The translations under genes and the position numbers were made by a program. From positions 5,973 to 69,972 of the forward strand of contig SMXQ01000148.1 in assembly GCA_004356985.1 (NCBI GenBank): a stretch of 64,000 nucleotides of DNA. Reading direction: 5' to 3'. Positions 13,301 to 27,733 of the stretch are shown one piece after another. The number at the start of each line of letters is the position of its first letter. The stretch's first letter is position 1. The stretch comes from Alphaproteobacteria bacterium. Lineage in GTDB: Bacteria > Pseudomonadota > Alphaproteobacteria > SMXQ01. Under the pieces are notes generated by a model, which was not told where the DNA came from, did not search any database, and saw only the letters and a list, made by a program, of their open reading frames with translations.

Positions 13301-14953
13301 TTAAGCGGCGGAATCGCCAGCCGCCGCCTGGGCAGCGGGCCGCGGCTTCAATACGCGGCTGGGCGGCAGGGACACCGTGACCGTCGTGCCGATGTGCAGA
13401 TGACTCTTGATGGTCAGGTGCCCGCCATGGGCCTCGACCAGAGATCTCGCCAGCGGCAGGCCCAGCCCGGTGCCCTCGTACTTTCGGTTGAGGCCGCCGG
13501 CCACCTGACCGAAAGGCGCCAGGGCGATATCGATATCCTGGGACCGCATGCCAATTCCATTATCCGAGACCGATAGGGTGAAGCCGCCATCGGCCTTCGG
13601 CGCGGCCTCGACCTCCAACCCGCCGCCCGGCGGGGTGAATTTCACGGCGTTGGAAAGAAGATTGATCAGCACCTGCTTGAGTTTCCGCTCATCCACGTAC
13701 AAACGGTACGGTTCGGAAAGGGGCATGGTGCGCACCTCAACATCGGACTGTTCGGCCTTGTATTCGATCAGTTTGATGCATGACCTGATCAGTTCCGCGA
13801 CATCGACCTCTTCTTCCTGCAACTCCGCCTTGCCCGACTCCACCTTCGAGATATCGAGGATGTCATTGATGATCTTCAAAAGATGGTTGGCGGAACTGTT
13901 GATGTCGCGGACATATTCCCGCTGCTTTTCCGTCAAATCGCCGAACGAGGGGCTGTCCAGCAACTCGGAAAATCCCATGATGGCATTCAATGGCGTACGC
14001 AGTTCATGACTCATATTCGCCATGAACTCGCCCATGGAGCGGTTCGCCATGACCTGATCCTCGTAGTCGGGGCCGCGTGTGGACTCCAACCCACGACGAA
14101 TGGTGGCATCCCAAAAGTTACAGACATACAAGATTCTATCGCGCTTGCGCTTTTCCAAGGGACTGTCGGACCTTTTGAGCCGCACCGAGCCAACGGTCAG
14201 TTCGATGGCCCTGATGGTACCGTCGGTGCGTTGGATCGCCGTCGGATGTGGCCCGATCTGCGACTCCTCCCGCCTGGCCATGCGGAGGTAATGGGAAATC
14301 TTATGCGCGGCGCTGTCGGGTTCGAAGGTGGGGCAGAGTTCGTCCACCACGCATCCTACGATGGATTCAATTTCGCGGCCCAACAGGCCGCCCGCGGCGC
14401 TGTTGGCATAGACGATTTCATTGTCTTCGTTGACCACGAAGATTGAATCATAGGTGTTTTCGAAAACCGCCTTAAGCAAGGTATCCTTGTGAAGCAGGGC
14501 CATTTCACTGATGAACATGGCGCGGTCTTTGTTAAGGCCCTCCCTAATGGCCGCATAGGTCAGCACCAGGGCAGGCAAAATAATAGCGGGAGCGGTTTCA
14601 AGCACAATTCCGTGTTTCGCCTGTAGATAGGGGTTGGCCCAGATCGTGCCGACACACAGTAAGACCAGGCCAGCGGGCCCGGTCCATCGCGATCCCTTGC
14701 CGAAGCGCGCGCCGAAAACGGTCGCTATGGCGCCGATGGCGGCGACTGCCAGGAGTTGATAGTTCCAGTCGAGGGATTCGCGGACCAGTTGGAGACCCGC
14801 GACGCTCGGTAGGCGCTCGAGCATTTGTTCGCGCAACAGGAAATAAAGGAACGTGGCGACCAACACGACCAGGACACAGGACGTGTAGTCTCTACGCGCC
14901 GTGTTTGGGTTACGTTTGGTGATGTAGGCAGACAACTGGATACTCCACGCCAA
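13301..14953 (-). CDS. membrane-anchored PAS sensor histidine kinase (PleC/DivJ-like HisKA box), no receiver
   Basis: N-terminal TM helices, PAS (FENTYDSIFVVNEDNEIVYAN), H-box FMANMSHELRTPLNAIMGFSELL, HATPase_c N/G boxes (NLLSNAVKFT, DNGIGM, GTGLGL). Confidence 0.8.
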   Translation of the reverse strand: MAWSIQLSAYITKRNPNTARRDYTSCVLVVLVATFLYFLLREQMLERLPSVAGLQLVRESLDWNYQLLAVAAIGAIATVFGARFGKGSRWTGPAGLVLLCVGTIWANPYLQAKHGIVLETAPAIILPALVLTYAAIREGLNKDRAMFISEMALLHKDTLLKAVFENTYDSIFVVNEDNEIVYANSAAGGLLGREIESIVGCVVDELCPTFEPDSAAHKISHYLRMARREESQIGPHPTAIQRTDGTIRAIELTVGSVRLKRSDSPLEKRKRDRILYVCNFWDATIRRGLESTRGPDYEDQVMANRSMGEFMANMSHELRTPLNAIMGFSELLDSPSFGDLTEKQREYVRDINSSANHLLKIINDILDISKVESGKAELQEEEVDVAELIRSCIKLIEYKAEQSDVEVRTMPLSEPYRLYVDERKLKQVLINLLSNAVKFTPPGGGLEVEAAPKADGGFTLSVSDNGIGMRSQDIDIALAPFGQVAGGLNRKYEGTGLGLPLARSLVEAHGGHLTIKSHLHIGTTVTVSLPPSRVLKPRPAAQAAAGDSAA

Positions 14954-14955
14954 AT

Positions 14956-15255
14956 TCAGCAGCGTTCGCGCAGGGCTGCCCGGTAATCTTGAATTTTTGT
15001 GGTCCGGAGACCGCGGACGCCGTGACTATCGATCAAGCGCTGCCAGGACAGGAATTCCTCGATGGACAGGGCGTAACGCTCACACGCTTCCTCAATGGTG
15101 ATCAGGCCCGCGCGAACGCCAGCAACCACTTCCGCTTTCCGGCGGATGACCCAGCGTTTGGTGTCCGACGGTGGCAGGTCGTTGACGCTCATGGGGTTCC
15201 CATGAGGCGCGAAGATGCGGCTCGAAAAACTGTCACGCGGCTGCGATATGTACAT
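14956..15255 (-). CDS. DUF1153-family small HTH protein (SciP-like); true start may be internal Met at ~15192
   Basis: RWVIRRKAEVVAGVRAGLITIEEACERYALSIEEFLSWQRLIDSHGVRGLRTTKIQDYR matches DUF1153 pattern; stop 2 nt before kinase start. Confidence 0.5.
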   Translation of the reverse strand: MYISQPRDSFSSRIFAPHGNPMSVNDLPPSDTKRWVIRRKAEVVAGVRAGLITIEEACERYALSIEEFLSWQRLIDSHGVRGLRTTKIQDYRAALRERC

Positions 15256-15714: not shown

Positions 15715-16413
15715 CTATTTGGCGCCGGCGCGGCTGGCTTCCATCCGTGACCATAGATAGGTCCCGCGGCGCTCCAGGGCGCGTTCGAACTCGTCGGCGA
15801 AATTTGGGGCGGCCGCGCTGATCACGGCGTCGTTGGCCATCAGGGCGTCGGACCACGCCTGGACCAGGGGGAAGTCTTTCAAAAGCCCGGTCCCCAGCGC
15901 CGCCTCGGCCATGGCCAAGCGCCGCAGGAACGGCCCATAGGCCGCGTCCACCAGGCACAGCGTATCGCCGTTGAAGTAAGGGCCGTCATTGCCGCGTTCG
16001 CTCGCCAATGCTTCTTCCAGCCGCGACAGCACCTTTGGCGCCTTGGCCAGCCCGTCTTCCATGGCGTCCTTGGTCTTGGCGTAAATGATCTTGCTCAGCG
16101 CGCTCGAGAAATCGGCGACAAAATCCGTCCACGCCCGGTTGCGTGCCCGCTTTATGGCATCGGCGGGATGCAACCTGGGTTCGACCGTCTCGTCGAGGAA
16201 CTCGGCGATGGCGTTGGATTCGAAGAGGATGTCGTCATCGACCTTGAGCACCGGCACCTTGCCATGGGGAGAAATCTCCAGGAACCAATCGGGCTTGTCG
16301 CGGAGATCGATGTAGGTGACCTCGAAATCGACGTTTTTTGCGCGCATTAGGATCACGGCGCGCTGCACCCAGGGTCACGTGAAGGAGCTGATCAGGTGAT
16401 ATTTTTTCGCCAT
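15715..16413 (-). CDS. glutathione S-transferase (omega/thioredoxin-like N-domain) with in-frame TGA at predicted active-site position (codon 13); annotated ORF track starts at GTG after the TGA
   Basis: ATG at 16413 with GAGGA RBS gives MAKKYHLISSFT-TGA-PWVQRAVILMRAKNVDFEVTYIDLRDKPDWFLEISPHGKVPVL, colinear with GST N-terminal β1-α1 region; TGA at 16375-16377. Confidence 0.45.
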
Positions 16414-16640
16414 GTGGCGGTCCTCGAATCGACGATTGCTATTGTCACCCATCAACATATGCCGGTCACCGGAGCCCGTCAAAGCGCATCCTCCACGCTT
16501 ATCGCCCCCATGACTGCTGGCGGCTAAAAAACAGACTTTCTTGACCTAGGGCATGAAGGCGCGTCGGGCCTGTTCTCGCGATGACCCGAAGGCGACGATC
16601 CGCCTCCATAGACTCGCGCCCTTCCAATCCTTAGGATTTC

Positions 16641-16682
16641 CCCGAAACGTTTGGCCCGAAACGTTTGGCCCGAAAAGTTTGG
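16641..16682. repeat. 3x tandem 14-nt repeat CCCGAAACGTTTGG (third copy CCCGAAAAGTTTGG), each containing palindrome AAACGTTT, abutting RBS of downstream hydrolase
   Basis: Direct reading of sequence 16641-16682. Confidence 0.8.
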
Positions 16683-16693
16683 GAGGAAACATC

Positions 16694-17383
16694 GTGACCA
16701 ATTTCGTGCTCATCCATGGCTCGTACCAGGGCGGCTGGATCTGGAAACCGGTGGCAACGCGCCTACGCGATGGCGGACATTTGGTCTATGCGCCGACCCT
16801 CGACGGGTGCGGGGAACGGGCCGCCCAGTGCAGGCCAGGCATCACCACCGAAACCCAGGCTTCGGAGCTGGCGGGGTTCCTGCGGTCGGAAGATTTGCGC
16901 GACGTGGTGCTGGTTGGTGGGTCGTCGGGCGGCATGGTCATGGCGAAGACGGCGGAGCTGGCGCGCGAGCGGATCACCCGGCTGGTCTTTGCCGACGCCC
17001 TGGCGCTGATGCATGGCGAGAGCATCCGCGACATCGTATCGGGAACCGCGTCGGTGGAAACCGAGCACGCCAGTGGGCCGAGCCGCGAAGACCGGTTGAA
17101 GAGGTTTCTCCTCGACATGGATAAAGATCTCGCCGAATGGGCGGCCGACCGGTCCACCCTGCACCCCATCGGGGTCTCCACCCAGCCGGTGGTGCTGGAA
17201 AAATTCTGGAACCAGGACTGGAATGCTTTGGTGGTGTTCTGCCGCCAGGCCGGGAAGCCGGGCGAGGCCCACCAGCGACGCACGGCGGAGGCCCTTAATG
17301 CCCGCTGGCACGAGCTCGATACCGGCCACTATCCGATGCTGAGCATGCCCGACGCGCTGACACGACTTATCCTGGAGGGATAG
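16694..17383 (+). CDS. alpha/beta hydrolase (methylesterase/SABP2-MhpC-like)
   Basis: GTG start after GGGAGGAAAC RBS gives MTNFVLIHGSYQGGW…; nucleophile elbow GGSSGG; ORF-track upstream extension to 16553 reads through the repeats and is unlikely. Confidence 0.65.
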   Translation: MTNFVLIHGSYQGGWIWKPVATRLRDGGHLVYAPTLDGCGERAAQCRPGITTETQASELAGFLRSEDLRDVVLVGGSSGGMVMAKTAELARERITRLVFADALALMHGESIRDIVSGTASVETEHASGPSREDRLKRFLLDMDKDLAEWAADRSTLHPIGVSTQPVVLEKFWNQDWNALVVFCRQAGKPGEAHQRRTAEALNARWHELDTGHYPMLSMPDALTRLILEG

Positions 17384-17706
17384 CCGAAATTCACGCCACC
17401 CCGCTGCCAACCGAAAACAGGCCTGTCCTTAATGCCAGGATGTGGGCCGGGAGCGGTAAACCTGATGTCCGGTTTTGGCCCAAAGCGGCAGACATTTTGG
17501 GATGGAAGCCGCAACATCCCAACTCTACGTCATCAAGACTATCAAGCCGGGAAACCTTATGAGAAAGGCAAATGGCAGCGCTTTCCAATAGATTCAGGTG
17601 CATTTAGCTGCGCGGTGAACTAAATAATCGAAGGCCGAGGGTCCGGGCCGAACCTTTTGACGGGAAGCATCGGGTTCAAGGACTCGACCAGCGAACCGCC
17701 GTTTGT

Positions 17707-17841
17707 TTATTTGCGAAGGTTCTCACCAAGCAGACGAATTAAATCGATCGCCAAGTTTAACTGGTACATGTTGTACATATTCGAAATTACCAGAATCCCG
17801 ATAACGATAAAGAGCGCTAGTGTCACGGCTTTTTGATCCAT
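17707..17841 (-). CDS. possible 44-aa single-TM small protein (MDQKAVTLALFIVIGILVISNMYNMYQLNLAIDLIRLLGENLRK)
   Basis: ATG preceded by AAGGGGGG SD; AT-rich codon usage unlike host; not in ORF track (<60 aa). Confidence 0.3.
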   Translation of the reverse strand: MDQKAVTLALFIVIGILVISNMYNMYQLNLAIDLIRLLGENLRK

Positions 17842-18467
17842 TGCATCCCCCCTTACCAAAAATTGATCCACCGAAACAGACCACGTTCGGTTCTCGCCTG
17901 ATGGCCCTCATTGGCATCCCCGAGAGGCCACCCGCAACTGCCGACAACGGTAGCACAAAGGGCGTCGCAACCGCAAATTCCGTCCCGACCGCCGCGGGAT
18001 GGCAGGATTTCCGGTCCGCAGACCGACTCGAGTTGGCAGCCTGACCCGGTTTTAGCGGTTATTTGTAATGTCCTGTGTGGATGGCTCCCGGATTGCAAGG
18101 GTTGATTTGACGTTGATGCAAGTTGGCCGGGTACAGCACTGTGTCCGGGCCGGTTACCCTGGCGCAATCACAGCGCTGGAAAGACAACCATGACAAATCC
18201 GAAATCGACTTCTTCTTTGGAAACCAAACAACCAAACCCGTTGGGCTGGGATGCCAGGGCGCGCGCCTACCATAATTTCCAGGGCAAGGTATCGGCGCAG
18301 GCTGGGGGGCCGGAAGAAACGAAGTAAGATAAAGAATGCGGCGTTAACCCGATCTCCCCTTTCGCCCCAAAGATGCTATGAGGGTGAAGGAAGCGGCCCC
18401 TAGTCAGGCGGCGCCGATGGGGTTCTGATTTCACCCTTGTCTTGAAATGCGCCAGGGCGGTCATGGG

Positions 18468-18824
18468 ATGTCTGATTTGAAGCGCGAAGAATCGGCCTCG
18501 TCGCCATCCCGCGACAACGTGTTGTCACCGGAGGAATTGTGGGACCTGCGGCGGCATCACAATTTTATCATCGGATTATTTGTCGCCTTCTGGGTTTGTG
18601 CGATTCTCGTCATTGGGGCCATCCAATTTTTGGATCTCTCGGAAGCCATGGCACGCAATTCGATCGGCGTGCTGTTCGCTGGCGCTATCGTTATGTTGGC
18701 GTTGCAGTATTCCAAGCGATGCCCGAGATGCAGAGCCAATCTCGGCCGCCAGGCGAGGATGGGTATTCCCGAGAACTGCAAGAAGTGTGGCGTGCGGTTG
18801 AGCGACAAAAAAAAGCCGGCATAG
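18468..18824 (+). CDS. hypothetical 2-TM membrane protein with C-terminal zinc-ribbon (CPRC…CKKC)
   Basis: 118 aa from MSDLKREE; low GC (~53%) relative to surroundings. Confidence 0.4.
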   Translation: MSDLKREESASSPSRDNVLSPEELWDLRRHHNFIIGLFVAFWVCAILVIGAIQFLDLSEAMARNSIGVLFAGAIVMLALQYSKRCPRCRANLGRQARMGIPENCKKCGVRLSDKKKPA

Positions 18825-19301
18825 CCCGCGCCGACGCTCCCAGGAATATCTCGAGCATATCGACTTCGAGACCCGCGAAAATTTGCGCGCCCAAGGGCCC
18901 ATGGCCCGCCCCCGCGCGCGGGCCCAAGGAAACGTGACGGGCCCCGCCCATGCGCCATCGCCGACACGAAAACCCTTGCAACCGGGGACCATCCATACGG
19001 GACGATTCCTCAACACCGGGATGATGGCCCCATGGGCTTGTTAACCTGATATCTCCTTCCGGCCCAACGCAGCACCTTTGGGACTTGGCCTTGCGAACAA
19101 TCTTTTGGGCACCTCTACGGGTTTTCCTAACTATTTGTTTCTTTTATATTATTTGCGGTTCATGTGCTATGGTAAGGTGTCGAAATGAAATGGCTAGGCT
19201 CCTGTGAAGGATAATTTTAGTTTGAGAAACCCAAGGCTATTTTGTTAAATGGGGATTCCATGATTCAGCTTCTATTTTCACGGATCGGTATGTAGACAAA
19301 G

Positions 19302-19757: not shown

Positions 19758-20086
19758 GTGCTGGATCCAAGGCTGAATTGGGTGGCCTGCGCCCATCCAT
19801 TGGCCCAGTTTCTCGGTAAGTCCAAAAAAGTTTTGGGGATAAGCCTGATCCGGGCGGAGCCCTCCCATAGCGAAGGCCCCGTGTGCCTTCCCCGGCGCGG
19901 CGCCGGGGCCCATGGCACCATTGCGTCCCAAGGGGGCTGCCTTAGGGGGTTGCGCCGGTGGTGGCCAAGTTCTATCACGACGCCATCATCCAGGGCTTCA
20001 TTTTGCCCCGGCCCGGCGCCGGGGTTGCGGCAAGGAACATGACGCCGCGGGAATCTCGGGAAGCGGGCTCAGGGGGCGCGACGTAA

Positions 20087-20514
20087 TGGAGAATTTCACG
20101 CCGTTGTCGGCGCTTGCGGGCGGCGCGCTCATGGGTCTCGGCGCGGTGGTTTTGCTGTGGCTCACCGGCCGCATCGCCGGGGTCAGCGGGATCATCGCCG
20201 GATTGTTGCCGCCGGGCCGGGGCGATGCTCTCTGGCGCTTGGCGTTTCTGGTGGGCCTGGTGGGCGGCGCGGCGATCTATCGCACCCTTGGCGGCCCCCT
20301 GCAGGTCCTGCAGTTCACCATGTCCACCTTCATGATAGTCATCGGCGGGCTGTTGGTGGGCCTCGGCGCGGGCCTGGCCGGCGGCTGCACCTCCGGCCAC
20401 GGGATATGCGGCGTGGCCCGCGCCTCCAAGCGGTCGCTCTTAGCGCTCTCCGTCTTCATCCTCGCCGCCGGGCTCACCATCTACCTGATCCGCCACGTCC
20501 TGAGGGGCGGATGA
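20087..20514 (+). CDS. YeeE/YedE-family (sulphur-compound transporter-like) membrane protein, half-size form 1
   Basis: 142 aa, 4 TM, Gly-rich helices and GGCTSGHGICG motif typical of YeeE/YedE. Confidence 0.65.
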
Positions 20515-20921
20515 TGGCCCGCGCCGCCGCGGCCCTCGTCTCGGGCCTCCTGTTCGGCCTTGGTTTGGCGGTCTCGCAAATGGCGAACCCGGCCAAGGTG
20601 CTGGGCTTCCTGGACATCGCCGGGCGCTGGGACCCGAGCCTGGCGTTGGTGCTGGCCGCCGCCGCCGGGGTCGCCACCATCGGCTATCGAAGGGTGCTTT
20701 CCCGGCCCAAACCGGCCCTCGCCCCGGCCTTCAACCTGCCCCGGAAGACCGGGATCGACGCCAAGGCGGTGATCGGCGCCGCCCTGTTCGGCATGGGCTG
20801 GGGGCTCGCCGGCCTGTGCCCGGGCCCGGCCTTCGCCGCCCTGGCCTTCGGCCAGCTGGAAATCCTGTTCTTCATCGGCACCATGGGCCTCGGCCTCCAC
20901 CTGGCCCGCCAGATGAACTGA
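20511..20921 (+). CDS. YeeE/YedE-family membrane protein, half-size form 2
   Basis: 136 aa; ATGATG overlaps stop of previous; MGWGLAGLCPGP motif. Confidence 0.65.
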   Translation: MMARAAAALVSGLLFGLGLAVSQMANPAKVLGFLDIAGRWDPSLALVLAAAAGVATIGYRRVLSRPKPALAPAFNLPRKTGIDAKAVIGAALFGMGWGLAGLCPGPAFAALAFGQLEILFFIGTMGLGLHLARQMN

Positions 20922-27037: not shown

Positions 27038-27733
27038 ATGACCATGACCCTGACCGGCCGCACCGCGGAACAAGAGGCCGCCGCCAAAGACACCGCCAAG
27101 ATTTTGGTCGATATCGGCGCCGTGAATTTCCGGCCCGAGGATCCCTATATCCTCACCTCGGGCCGGGCCAGCCCGGTCTATATCGATTGCCGCAAGCTGA
27201 TTTCCTTCCCCGAGCAACGCGCCCGGGTGATCGGCCATGCCGCCCGGGCCATTGCCGGCGCGGCGTCCGACAAGCCGGTCGAGGCCGTGGCCGGGGGCGA
27301 AACCGCGGGCATTCCCTATGCCGCTTGGATTTCCGACAAGATGGGCCTGCCCATGCTCTACGTGCGCAAGCAACCCAAGGGCTTCGCCCGCATGGGCCAG
27401 ATCGAGGGCGAGATGGCGGCAGGCTGCCATGTCCTGTTGGTGGAGGACATGGCCACCGACGGGGGCTCCAAGGTCAACTTCATCAACGCCATCCGCAAGG
27501 CCGGCGGCAGCATCGACCGGGTGTTCGTGGTGTTCTATTACGGCATCTTTCCCGAGGCCCTGACGACCATGGACGACCTCGGGGTGAAGCTGGTCTGGCT
27601 GGCCGTCTGGTCGGACATCATCGACCTCGCCGAGGAACGCCAAACCTACCCGCCCGAGCTGATCGCCGAAGTGCGGGCCTATCTCGACGATCCCCATGGC
27701 TGGTCCGCGGTCCACGGCGGCAAGGGTGCCTGA
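27038..27733 (+). CDS. pyrE: orotate phosphoribosyltransferase (long alphaproteobacterial form)
   Basis: 231 aa; PRPP-binding HVLLVEDMATDGGS motif. Confidence 0.85.
   Translation: MTMTLTGRTAEQEAAAKDTAKILVDIGAVNFRPEDPYILTSGRASPVYIDCRKLISFPEQRARVIGHAARAIAGAASDKPVEAVAGGETAGIPYAAWISDKMGLPMLYVRKQPKGFARMGQIEGEMAAGCHVLLVEDMATDGGSKVNFINAIRKAGGSIDRVFVVFYYGIFPEALTTMDDLGVKLVWLAVWSDIIDLAEERQTYPPELIAEVRAYLDDPHGWSAVHGGKGA

What the first reader, a model, noticed from the sequence alone, without database searches (positions are those of the whole stretch)
15715..16440. GST with in-frame TGA exactly at the catalytic-Cys position: selenocysteine-GST candidate or nonsense pseudogene
The ORF track starts this glutathione S-transferase at a GTG (16368) with no Shine-Dalgarno. 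45 nt upstream there is an ATG (16413) preceded by GAGGA at optimal spacing. Read from that ATG, the N-terminus is MAKKYHLISSFT-[TGA]-PWVQRAVILMRAKNVDFEVTYIDLRDKPDWFLEISPHGKVPVL. This is colinear with the omega-class GST N-domain (human GSTO1 …[49 protein letters not shown]). The TGA (16375-16377, minus strand) falls on the active-site Cys of the C-P-[FWY] motif. TGA differs from TGC/TGT by one base, so a nonsense mutation is possible. The downstream reading frame and the motif are intact, however, and the GTG-started product would lack β1 and the catalytic residue. Immediately 3' of the UGA the mRNA can form a GC hairpin (GCGCGC…12 nt…GCGCGC, beginning ~12 nt after UGA, loop containing GU), i.e. 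in the place where bacterial SECIS elements sit. A Sec-for-Cys swap at a redox-active thioredoxin-fold site is the classic selenoprotein signature. I cannot say from memory whether a bacterial Sec-containing omega-like GST has been described.
Basis: partly seen in the sequence, partly recalled or inferred. Interest (0 to 1): 0.7.

Follow-up and report, generated by a model that had tools for sequence, protein, structure and literature searches.

The report
Selenocysteine GST gene, known family
The in-frame TGA in this glutathione S-transferase gene is almost certainly a genuine selenocysteine codon, not a broken gene, but it belongs to a bacterial selenoprotein family first described from Sargasso Sea metagenomes in 2005, so the only news is that databases annotate it as a truncated protein.

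Summary
On the minus strand there is GAGGA (16425-16421), ATG 16413, TGA 16377-16375 at codon 13, and a GCGCGC/12 nt/GCGCGC hairpin starting 11 nt after the TGA.

The TGA is not a nonsense mutation or a sequencing error:
- The same TGA recurs in four independent assemblies.
- It sits at the same codon in 64 of 80 species-level relatives; 12 others have TGT/TGC.
- The 12-codon N-terminal extension is conserved at the amino-acid level while its synonymous sites vary.
- In 67 distinct Sec forms, codons +4 to +7 (CAG CGC GCC GTG) are fixed in 66-67 sequences. Neighbouring four-fold sites, and the same codons in Cys forms, vary freely. This is the signature of a SECIS element.

The residue aligns with catalytic Cys32 of human GSTO1 and lies just before helix α1 in a confident model.

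The family is already published. The supplement of Zhang, Fomenko and Gladyshev (2005) lists Sargasso Sea "Glutathione S-transferase" selenoproteins with the same ...T-U-PWVQRAVI... motif at codon 13, 75% identical to this protein.

Two things remain untested: Sec machinery in this genome (none in the 64 kb) and selenium incorporation. GenBank holds this gene as a truncated 210-aa protein (TDI63752.1).

The parts
16421..16425 (-). Shine-Dalgarno-like GAGGA, 7 nt upstream of the true ATG start
   Evidence: Read directly from the sequence.
15715..16413 (-). Full-length GST-like selenoprotein gene. It has 232 codons plus the TAG stop, with Sec at codon 13. Domains: GST_N_2/GST_N_3 at residues 7-79 and GST_C_2/GST_C at 112-194.
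   Evidence: Translation. Pfam hits. Full-length Cys homologues of 231-233 aa. The same ATG-to-TGA distance in relatives.
16375..16377 (-). In-frame TGA, the predicted selenocysteine codon. It is homologous to the catalytic Cys of the C-P-[FWY] motif of Cys-type GSTs.
   Evidence: TGA in 64 and TGT/TGC in 12 of 80 species-level loci. Aligns with Cys32 of human GSTO1. Identical TGA in four independent assemblies. Same codon in the published Sargasso Sec-GSTs.
16340..16363 (-). Predicted SECIS stem-loop: GCGCGC (16363-16358), a 12-nt loop CGUGAUCCUAAU (16357-16346) with GU at loop positions 2-3, and GCGCGC (16345-16340). The stem starts 11 nt after the UGA.
   Evidence: RNAalifold consensus on 37 Sec forms; 99.5% of cells paired. 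Codons +4 to +7 are invariant at synonymous sites in 66-67 of 67 Sec forms but variable in Cys forms. Covariance model score 74.6 bits for the window against 37-58 bits for 11 of the 12 Cys forms searched.
16366..16368 (-). GTG (Val codon +3), the start picked by a mechanical ORF finder. It is an artefactual start giving a 217-aa product.
   Evidence: The product would lack strand β1 (residues 5-10) and the active-site residue.
16345..16347 (-). Internal ATG (Met codon +10), used as the start in public annotation. It gives the 210-aa 'glutathione S-transferase family protein' TDI63752.1.
   Evidence: P0122 is an exact match to the window product from this ATG.

Best explanation
The gene at 16413-15715 (minus strand) encodes a 232-residue cytosolic-type GST whose active-site residue is selenocysteine (U13, motif T-U-P-W).

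Inferred decoding. Translation starts at ATG 16413 behind a GAGGA ribosome-binding site. At UGA 16377-16375 the ribosome is served by SelB·GTP·Sec-tRNA(Sec), recruited by the SECIS hairpin that begins 11 nt downstream (GCGCGC / CGUGAUCCUAAU / GCGCGC). Sec is inserted and translation continues to TAG 15717.

Inferred chemistry. The protein works like Cys-type GSTs (omega, DHAR, lambda, Grx2-like). The selenolate at the N-terminus of helix α1 attacks a glutathionylated or oxidised substrate and forms a mixed selenenyl-sulfide with glutathione, which a second GSH then resolves. That makes it a thiol-transferase or reductase rather than a conjugating enzyme. Sec would give higher nucleophilicity than Cys.

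Shown here:
- the gene anatomy;
- conservation of the TGA and of the upstream peptide;
- RNA-level constraint on the hairpin;
- homology of U13 to the catalytic Cys;
- the GST fold;
- identity with a published selenoprotein family.

Inferred, not shown: actual Sec insertion in this organism, the presence of selA/selB/selC/selD in its genome, the catalytic chemistry and the physiological substrate.
For: 1. Conservation of the TGA. In 80 species-level genome loci, 64 have TGA and 12 have TGT/TGC at exactly this codon. All share ...[ST]xT-[U/C]-PWVQR. Of the 120 best protein hits, 65 are gene calls truncated just after this position and 55 are full-length Cys forms. DNA upstream of two truncated calls that were examined shows the same TGA and N-terminal extension.

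2. The upstream 12 codons are translated. Y-8, H-7, S-4 and T-1 are conserved in 64-67 of 67 sequences, while their third positions vary (0.9-1.7 bits).

3. SECIS.
- Codons +4 to +7 are CAG CGC GCC GTG in 66-67 of 67 Sec forms (third-position entropy 0-0.11 bits).
- Flanking four-fold codons show 1.5-1.9 bits, and codons +5 to +7 in the Cys forms show 0.65-1.89 bits.
- Arg +11 is only CGC or CGU in Sec forms, the two bases that pair with G. Cys forms also use CGG.
- The consensus is a 6-bp stem with a 12-nt loop, 99.5% paired.

4. Not an error. The identical TGA and hairpin occur in four independent assemblies, two of them with other nucleotide differences.

5. Active site. U13 aligns with Cys32 of GSTO1. 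The AlphaFold model of a Cys homologue 83% identical to the window protein (pLDDT 93.5) puts residue 13 between β1 (5-10) and α1 (14-25). The G-site residues K-V-P-V-L and F-E-S are invariant.

6. Published family. Sargasso Sea sequences AACY01726075 (MAKNIHLISSVTuPWVQRAVIVLRTKEV...) and AACY01041448 carry TGA at codon 13. They are 75% and 74% identical to the window protein.
Against: - No selA, selB, selD or tRNA-Sec was found in the 64-kb window, nor any tRNA-Sec in the flanks of 33 related loci. The Sec trait of this genome is therefore unverified.
- No Rfam family matched.
- The hairpin alone is not more stable than shuffled sequence (z = -0.81).
- The stem shows no compensatory double changes, only G-C/G-U and C-G/U-G. 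Because the stem is a (GC)n repeat, registers slid by 2 also pair (83% and 68%). The structural claim therefore rests on conservation, not covariation.
- No selenium incorporation data exist for any member; the 2026 review says functions are largely uncharacterised.
Confidence: 0.9

Rival explanations
1. Nonsense pseudogene or N-terminally truncated GST. TGC/TGT mutated to TGA, translation stops after 12 residues, and at most a 210-217-aa fragment is made from the downstream ATG or GTG.
For: TGA is one substitution away from TGC/TGT. Gene callers and GenBank annotate exactly such a truncated product. Sec machinery was not found in the window.
Against: - The same 'mutation' is present in 64 of 80 species-level relatives spanning Alpha- and Gammaproteobacteria.
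- The 12 codons upstream stay conserved at the protein level, with a start codon and an SD.
- The truncated product would lack β1, the active-site residue and part or all of α1.
- The downstream RNA is under extra constraint only in the TGA forms.
Confidence: 0.05
2. UGA is read through or recoded as something other than Sec (for example Trp, Cys or Gly by near-cognate or reassigned decoding), without SelB or a SECIS.
For: No Sec machinery could be shown for this genome. Stem covariation is absent.
Against: - TGA is used as an ordinary stop elsewhere in the window; for example the ORFs ending at 27733, 29461, 57179 and 40693 end in TGA.
- The homologous residue in relatives is always Cys, the classic Sec partner.
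- The invariant CAGCGCGCCGUGAU...GCGYGC element at the canonical distance from the UGA is unexplained by simple read-through.
- The family has been classed as a selenoprotein family by the field since 2005.
Confidence: 0.03
3. Sequencing or assembly error at 16375-16377.
For: The window appears to derive from a metagenome-assembled genome; the identical protein TDI63752.1 is labelled MAG.
Against: Four independent assemblies from different samples (JGI 3300009030, JGI 3300024431, ENA ERZ27251149, NCBI GCA_004566115.1) carry the same TGA. Two of them differ elsewhere in the gene at the DNA level.
Confidence: 0.01

Closest known systems
GST-like selenoprotein family of marine bacteria (Zhang, Fomenko & Gladyshev 2005, Genome Biol 6:R37; 'Glutathione S-transferase', COG0625; listed again in the GOS survey of 2008 and the reviews of 2022 and 2026)
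   Same: Same protein family: 75% identity over 157 aa to AACY01726075 and 74% over 87 aa to AACY01041448. Same TGA at codon 13, same T-U-P-W-V-Q-R-A-V-I motif, and the same downstream sequence CAGCG[C/T]GCCGTGAT....TGCGCGC.
   Different: Nothing of substance. This copy is from a higher-GC (65%) alphaproteobacterial MAG and is full length, whereas the Sargasso entries are fragments. Public annotation of this copy (TDI63752.1) does not recognise the Sec codon.
Omega-class GST (human GSTO1-1, Cys32) and Leishmania thiol-dependent reductase TDR1
   Same: GST fold. The active-site residue lies in a C-P-[FWY] motif at the start of α1, and the cis-Pro (VPVL) and Glu-Ser glutathione-binding residues are conserved. 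These are the best PDB sequence matches (4ags E = 9e-28; 8qll 3e-22; 1eem 3e-18). TM-score is 0.72-0.79.
   Different: Sec replaces Cys. Identity is only 22-26%. There is no omega-type N-terminal extension: β1 begins at residue 5. Tau-class (Ser-type) GSTs are equally close structurally (TM 0.80, 30% identity), so class assignment to omega is not justified.
Escherichia coli fdhF-type bacterial SECIS
   Same: A hairpin inside the coding region immediately 3' of the UGA. The stem starts 11 nt after the UGA, which from my own knowledge is the spacing reported as critical for the minimal E. coli SECIS (Liu et al. 1998). G and U sit in the 5' part of the apical loop.
   Different: The stem is short (6 bp) and the nominal loop is large (12 nt). 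No conserved bulged U is evident. No Rfam model matched. SelB binding is untested.
Other Trx-fold selenoproteins with Sec/Cys homologue pairs (Grx-like, DsbA-like, Prx-like, ArsC selenoproteins)
   Same: Sec replaces the N-terminal nucleophilic Cys at the start of α1 of a thioredoxin fold. Sec and Cys forms coexist in close relatives.
   Different: There is no UxxC or CxxU pair here. It is a single-nucleophile site (U-P-W-V) that would use glutathione as the resolving thiol.

Membership tests
GST-like selenoprotein family (Zhang et al. 2005) | In-frame TGA aligned with a conserved Cys in homologues (a Sec/Cys pair) | tested here: met
   64 TGA and 12 TGT/TGC at the same codon in 80 species-level loci. 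55 full-length Cys forms are among the top 120 proteins.
GST-like selenoprotein family (Zhang et al. 2005) | Sequence homology to published members, with Sec at the same position and motif | tested here: met
   AACY01726075 and AACY01041448 in the paper's supplement: TGA at nt 37-39 (codon 13), motif TuPWVQRAVI, 75% and 74% identity.
GST-like selenoprotein family (Zhang et al. 2005) | Conservation of the regions flanking the TGA on both sides (the ORF continues upstream) | tested here: met
   The upstream 12 codons are conserved as amino acids with variable third positions. ATG and SD are present.
GST-like selenoprotein family (Zhang et al. 2005) | Bacterial SECIS-like stem-loop downstream of the TGA, with a G in the apical loop | tested here: met
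   A 6-bp stem starting 11 nt after the UGA and a loop CGUGAU.... Synonymous sites are fixed in 66-67 of 67 Sec forms but not in Cys forms. There is no compensatory covariation.
GST-like selenoprotein family (Zhang et al. 2005) | Host genome has the Sec-decoding trait (selA, selB, selC, selD) | not testable with these tools
   Only 64 kb is available. It holds no tRNA and no SelA/SelB/SelD among 38 ORFs scanned. No tRNA-Sec in the flanks of 33 related loci.
GST-like selenoprotein family (Zhang et al. 2005) | Selenium actually incorporated | not testable with these tools
   This needs 75Se labelling or mass spectrometry. The 2026 review states that such families are bioinformatic predictions.
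Omega-class GST | Canonical GST fold (Trx-like N domain plus helical C domain) | tested here: met
   Pfam GST_N_2/GST_N_3/GST_C_2. AlphaFold model with pLDDT 93.5. Foldseek TM 0.72-0.80 to GST structures.
Omega-class GST | Catalytic Cys in the C-P-[FWY] motif at the start of α1 | tested here: met
   U13 aligns with Cys32 of human GSTO1, with Sec in place of Cys. Residue 13 directly precedes α1.
Omega-class GST | Within-class sequence identity (conventionally above about 40%; the rule is recalled from the GST literature) | tested here: not met
   22-26% identity to GSTO1/GSTO2. Tau-class GSTs are as close or closer at 26-30%. All NCBIfam GST models score far below their cut-offs.
Omega-class GST | Proline-rich N-terminal extension of about 19 residues preceding β1 (recalled from the GSTO1 structure paper) | tested here: not met
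   β1 starts at residue 5; only 4 residues precede it.
Bacterial SECIS (E. coli fdhF type) | Hairpin at a fixed short distance 3' of the UGA, with a conserved G/U in the apical loop | tested here: met
   11-nt spacer. Loop positions 2-3 are GU in 66 of 67 Sec forms.
Bacterial SECIS (E. coli fdhF type) | Bulged U in the upper stem; SelB binding | tested here: inconclusive
   No conserved bulge appears in the consensus structure. SelB binding cannot be tested. There is no Rfam match.

The most novel reading that the evidence does not exclude
Within this particular GST clade, selenocysteine rather than cysteine is the prevailing and possibly ancestral state: 64 of 76 species-level representatives, and Fitch root state U on a rough NJ tree. 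A 14-nt SECIS core (CAGCGCGCCGUGAU) is essentially invariant across Alpha- and Gammaproteobacteria. Sec and Cys forms have interchanged repeatedly (at least 8 switches). At least one very recent Sec-to-Cys convert still carries an intact 'fossil' SECIS (L092: TGT, 86% nt identity to the window gene). If correct, the clade is far more abundant than the 4-12 sequences reported in 2005 and 2008, is systematically mis-annotated as truncated proteins, and would be a convenient natural system for studying Sec/Cys exchange.
Probability: 0.6. Interest if true: 0.35.

Novelty: already known. Interest (0 to 1): 0.25.

Why it matters
For annotation, this gene is deposited as a 210-aa fragment (TDI63752.1). 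At least 65 of the 120 closest database entries appear to be truncated in the same way, some under misleading names such as 'Stringent starvation protein A'. Recognising the Sec codon restores β1 and the catalytic residue.

For biology, it adds nothing categorically new. A Sec-containing GST-like family with exactly this motif has been known since 2005.

Modest value lies in three points:
- Sec is the majority state in this clade.
- The SECIS core is extraordinarily conserved.
- Recent Sec-to-Cys converts exist.

No member has been characterised biochemically, so the enzymatic role of a selenolate in a GST active site remains open.

Tried and rejected
- **Rfam scan of the whole window:** no hit, so no curated SECIS model applies.
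- **Single-sequence folding of the region 3' of the UGA:** not distinguishable from shuffles (z = -0.81). Mean fold energy of the first 50 nt is actually lower in Cys forms (-20.4) than in Sec forms (-13.8 kcal/mol), because of higher GC and alternative long-range pairs. Energy is therefore not a useful discriminator.
- **Covariation test of the stem:** no double compensatory changes. Shuffles are uninformative because the pairs hardly vary.
- **tRNA-Sec search:** nothing in the window or in the flanks of 33 related loci.
- **Search for SelA/SelB/SelD:** none among 38 window ORFs by Pfam or NCBIfam.
- **Scan for other TGA-interrupted high-GC3 reading frames in the window:** only adjacent genes or antisense frames, no second candidate selenoprotein. 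The SECIS covariance model found no second convincing site; the next best hit is 18 bits and antisense to an aminotransferase gene.
- **Link to the examples cited in the reviews:** looking up the L048 product gave PPR22555.1/PPR71061.1, not the PPR62222.1 cited in the 2022 review, so that direct link was not made. The 2005 supplement then settled family identity.
- **Possible selenium link of the YeeE/YedE-like pair at 19912-20921:** it matches Pfam DUF6691/Sulf_transp but no NCBIfam model, so no link is claimed.
- **Finding sel genes of relatives through another large protein search:** considered and not run. The 120-hit listing could not be tied to the specific genomes.

Full report
**1. The observation**

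All coordinates below are on the minus strand.

- The ORF finder reports 15715..16368, starting at GTG, 217 aa.
- Upstream, in the same frame, lie GAGGA (16425-16421), a 7-nt spacer and ATG 16413.
- Twelve sense codons follow (MAKKYHLISSFT), then TGA at 16377-16375, then PWVQRAVILMRAK... through to TAG 15717-15715.
GCGCGC (16363-16358) starts 11 nt after the TGA. The 12-nt loop is CGUGAUCCUAAU, and the second GCGCGC arm is at 16345-16340.
- Taken alone the hairpin is unremarkable. The fold has a z-score of -0.81 against dinucleotide shuffles, and no Rfam family matches anywhere in the window.

**2. Is the TGA real?**

The product read from the internal ATG 16347 (210 aa) is identical to GenBank TDI63752.1, 'MAG: glutathione S-transferase family protein [Alphaproteobacteria bacterium]'. 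That protein is encoded on contigs from four independent samples. All four carry the same TGA, N-terminal extension and hairpin, and two differ from the window elsewhere in the gene. A sequencing error is excluded.

**3. Is it a nonsense mutation?**

A protein search with Cys substituted at position 13 returned two kinds of close relatives:
- 55 full-length proteins of about 232 aa carrying ...T-C-PWVQR...;
- 65 proteins of 209-217 aa that begin at MRAK, MILMRAK or [MV]QRAVI. This is the pattern expected when gene callers restart after an in-frame stop.

DNA upstream of two such truncated calls (75-76% identical proteins, one on a 6.16-Mb contig) shows the same in-frame TGA after MAKKYHLISSFT or MTKKYHLTSSYT.

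A scan of one genome per GTDB species gave 80 loci:
- 64 have TGA, 12 have TGT/TGC, and 4 distant ones (42-44% identity) lack the motif.
- They are mostly uncultured marine Alphaproteobacteria (labelled Rhodospirillales and similar) and Gammaproteobacteria (Pseudomonadales, Azotimanducaceae).

In 67 distinct TGA sequences the upstream codons are conserved as amino acids (Y-8 in 64/67, H-7 in 65/67, S-4 in 67/67, T-1 in 67/67). Their third positions vary by 0.9-1.7 bits. The extension is therefore translated in this frame. A pseudogene cannot explain this.

**4. The SECIS**

Because the hairpin lies in a conserved coding region, I compared synonymous sites.

| Site | Sec forms (67) | Cys forms (12) |
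|---|---|---|
| Codons +4 to +7 | CAG CGC GCC GUG in 66-67 of 67; third-position entropy 0-0.11 bits | codons +5 to +7: 0.65-1.89 bits |
| Flanking four-fold codons (Pro +1, Val +3, Ala +12) | 1.5-1.9 bits | not the comparison of interest |
| Arg +11 | only CGC (27) or CGU (40), the two choices that pair with G | CGC and CGG |

RNAalifold on 37 Sec forms gives the 6-bp stem and 12-nt loop. 99.5% of cells are paired. There are no compensatory double changes, only G-C/G-U and C-G/U-G, so the support is RNA-level conservation rather than covariation.

A covariance model built from these sequences gave the following scores:
- the window: 74.6 bits;
- other Sec forms: 64-75 bits;
- Cys forms: 37-58 bits, with one exception.

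The exception is L092. It is a Cys form (TGT) 83% identical in protein and 86% in DNA to the window gene, and it keeps the hairpin intact at 68.3 bits. It is apparently a recent Sec-to-Cys convert.

The 11-nt spacing and the GU in the loop match what I recall of the minimal E. coli fdhF SECIS. That comparison rests on my own knowledge and was not tested here.

**5. What the protein is**

- Pfam gives GST_N_2, GST_N_3 and GST_C_2. All NCBIfam GST models score far below their cut-offs, so there is no dedicated model.
- The best PDB sequence matches are Leishmania TDR1, omega-class GSTs, SspA and DHARs. Position 13 aligns with Cys32 of human GSTO1.
- An AlphaFold model of the Cys relative P0002 (pLDDT 93.5) shows β1 at residues 5-10, residue 13 at the turn, and α1 at 14-25. 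The annotated truncated products would therefore lack β1, the nucleophile and part or all of α1.
- Foldseek finds tau, omega, SspA and DHAR GSTs at TM 0.72-0.80 and 22-31% identity.
- The glutathione-site residues K-V-P-V-L and F-E-S are invariant.

The protein therefore works like a Cys-type (omega-like) GST. It fails the identity and N-terminal-extension criteria for the omega class itself.

**6. Comparison with what is known**

Zhang, Fomenko and Gladyshev (2005) list 'Glutathione S-transferase' among the new Sargasso Sea selenoprotein families, with 4 sequences. Their supplement gives two relevant sequences, both with TGA at codon 13:
- AACY01041448: MTSKYHLISFVTuPWVQRAVIVLRAKNVEFEV...
- AACY01726075: MAKNIHLISSVTuPWVQRAVIVLRTKEVEFDVTYINLREKPDWFLKISPHGKVPVL...NDGPYFNGDTLCLVDA

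They are 74% and 75% identical to the window protein. The DNA of the former contains CAGCGTGCCGTGATAGTTTTGCGCGC, the same element.

The GOS survey lists GST with 12 Sec and 1,036 Cys sequences. Reviews of 2022 and 2026 list the 'GST-like protein' selenoprotein family and note that functions are uncharacterised. The finding is thus a correct rediscovery of a known family.

**7. What remains open**

The window has no tRNA genes at all. No SelA, SelB or SelD turned up among 38 ORFs, and there is no second TGA-interrupted candidate. The Sec trait of this genome could not be checked.

The gene stands alone between a divergent α/β-hydrolase gene (16553-17383) and, downstream, SciP (14956-15255) and a PAS histidine kinase (13301-14953). 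Neighbours differ in relatives, so context gives no functional clue.

**8. Verdict**

The pseudogene and sequencing-error readings are rejected. Novelty: already known. The practical outcome is an annotation correction.

Minor added points:
- Sec predominates in this clade.
- The SECIS core is invariant.
- There have been several Sec/Cys switches, at least 8 by Fitch parsimony on a rough NJ tree.

Noticed in passing
L092:269-967 (ENA ERZ23495383 scaffold_19894; protein P0002): A Cys form (TGT) 83% identical in protein and 86% in DNA to the window gene. It still carries the complete SECIS-like element (CAGCGCGCCGTGATCCTGATGCGCGC) and scores 68.3 bits with the SECIS model, like true Sec forms. 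It looks like a very recent Sec-to-Cys conversion with a fossil SECIS.
   Followed up: partly
L008-L087 and P0001-P0120 (family-wide): On a rough NJ tree of 195 distinct sequences, Sec and Cys states need at least 8 changes (Fitch), with root state Sec. The tree is a midpoint-rooted distance tree only. Sec forms outnumber Cys forms 64 to 12 among species-level genomes, unlike the 12 to 1,036 ratio reported for GSTs at large in the GOS survey.
   Followed up: partly
window 16345-16347 (internal ATG); L048:3037: Systematic mis-annotation. The window gene is in GenBank as a 210-aa truncated 'GST family protein' (TDI63752.1). The MarineAlpha10_Bin3 orthologue is named 'Stringent starvation protein A' (PPR22555.1/PPR71061.1). 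65 of the top 120 database relatives are truncated calls.
   Followed up: yes
Supplement of PMC1088965 (AACY01575427, AACY01615117): The other two Sargasso 'GST' selenoproteins begin MEYPILYSFRR-U-PYAIRARLA... and clearly belong to a different GST subfamily. The published 'GST selenoprotein family' is therefore at least two unrelated Sec acquisitions.
   Followed up: no
window 19912-20514 and 20157-20921 (+ strand, overlapping ORF calls): A pair of half-size YeeE/YedE-like membrane proteins (Pfam DUF6691/Sulf_transp; a 'GGCTSGHGICG' motif in the first) about 3.5 kb from the GST gene. YedE relatives have been linked to selenium transport in the literature (my recollection), but no NCBIfam model matched either ORF, so no link is claimed.
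   Followed up: partly
window 14956-15255 (-): A 99-aa DUF1153 protein matches NCBIfam 'CtrA inhibitor SciP' above its cut-off (130 bits against 100). This confirms an alphaproteobacterial origin. It is followed by a PAS-HisKA histidine kinase (13301-14953), the same arrangement as in L088-L091.
   Followed up: no
window 17400-19300: A stretch of about 2 kb with only short, low-GC3 ORFs and no Pfam-recognisable gene, lying between the α/β-hydrolase gene and the 125-aa ORF at 18447. Composition there looks different from the rest of the 65% GC window.
   Followed up: no
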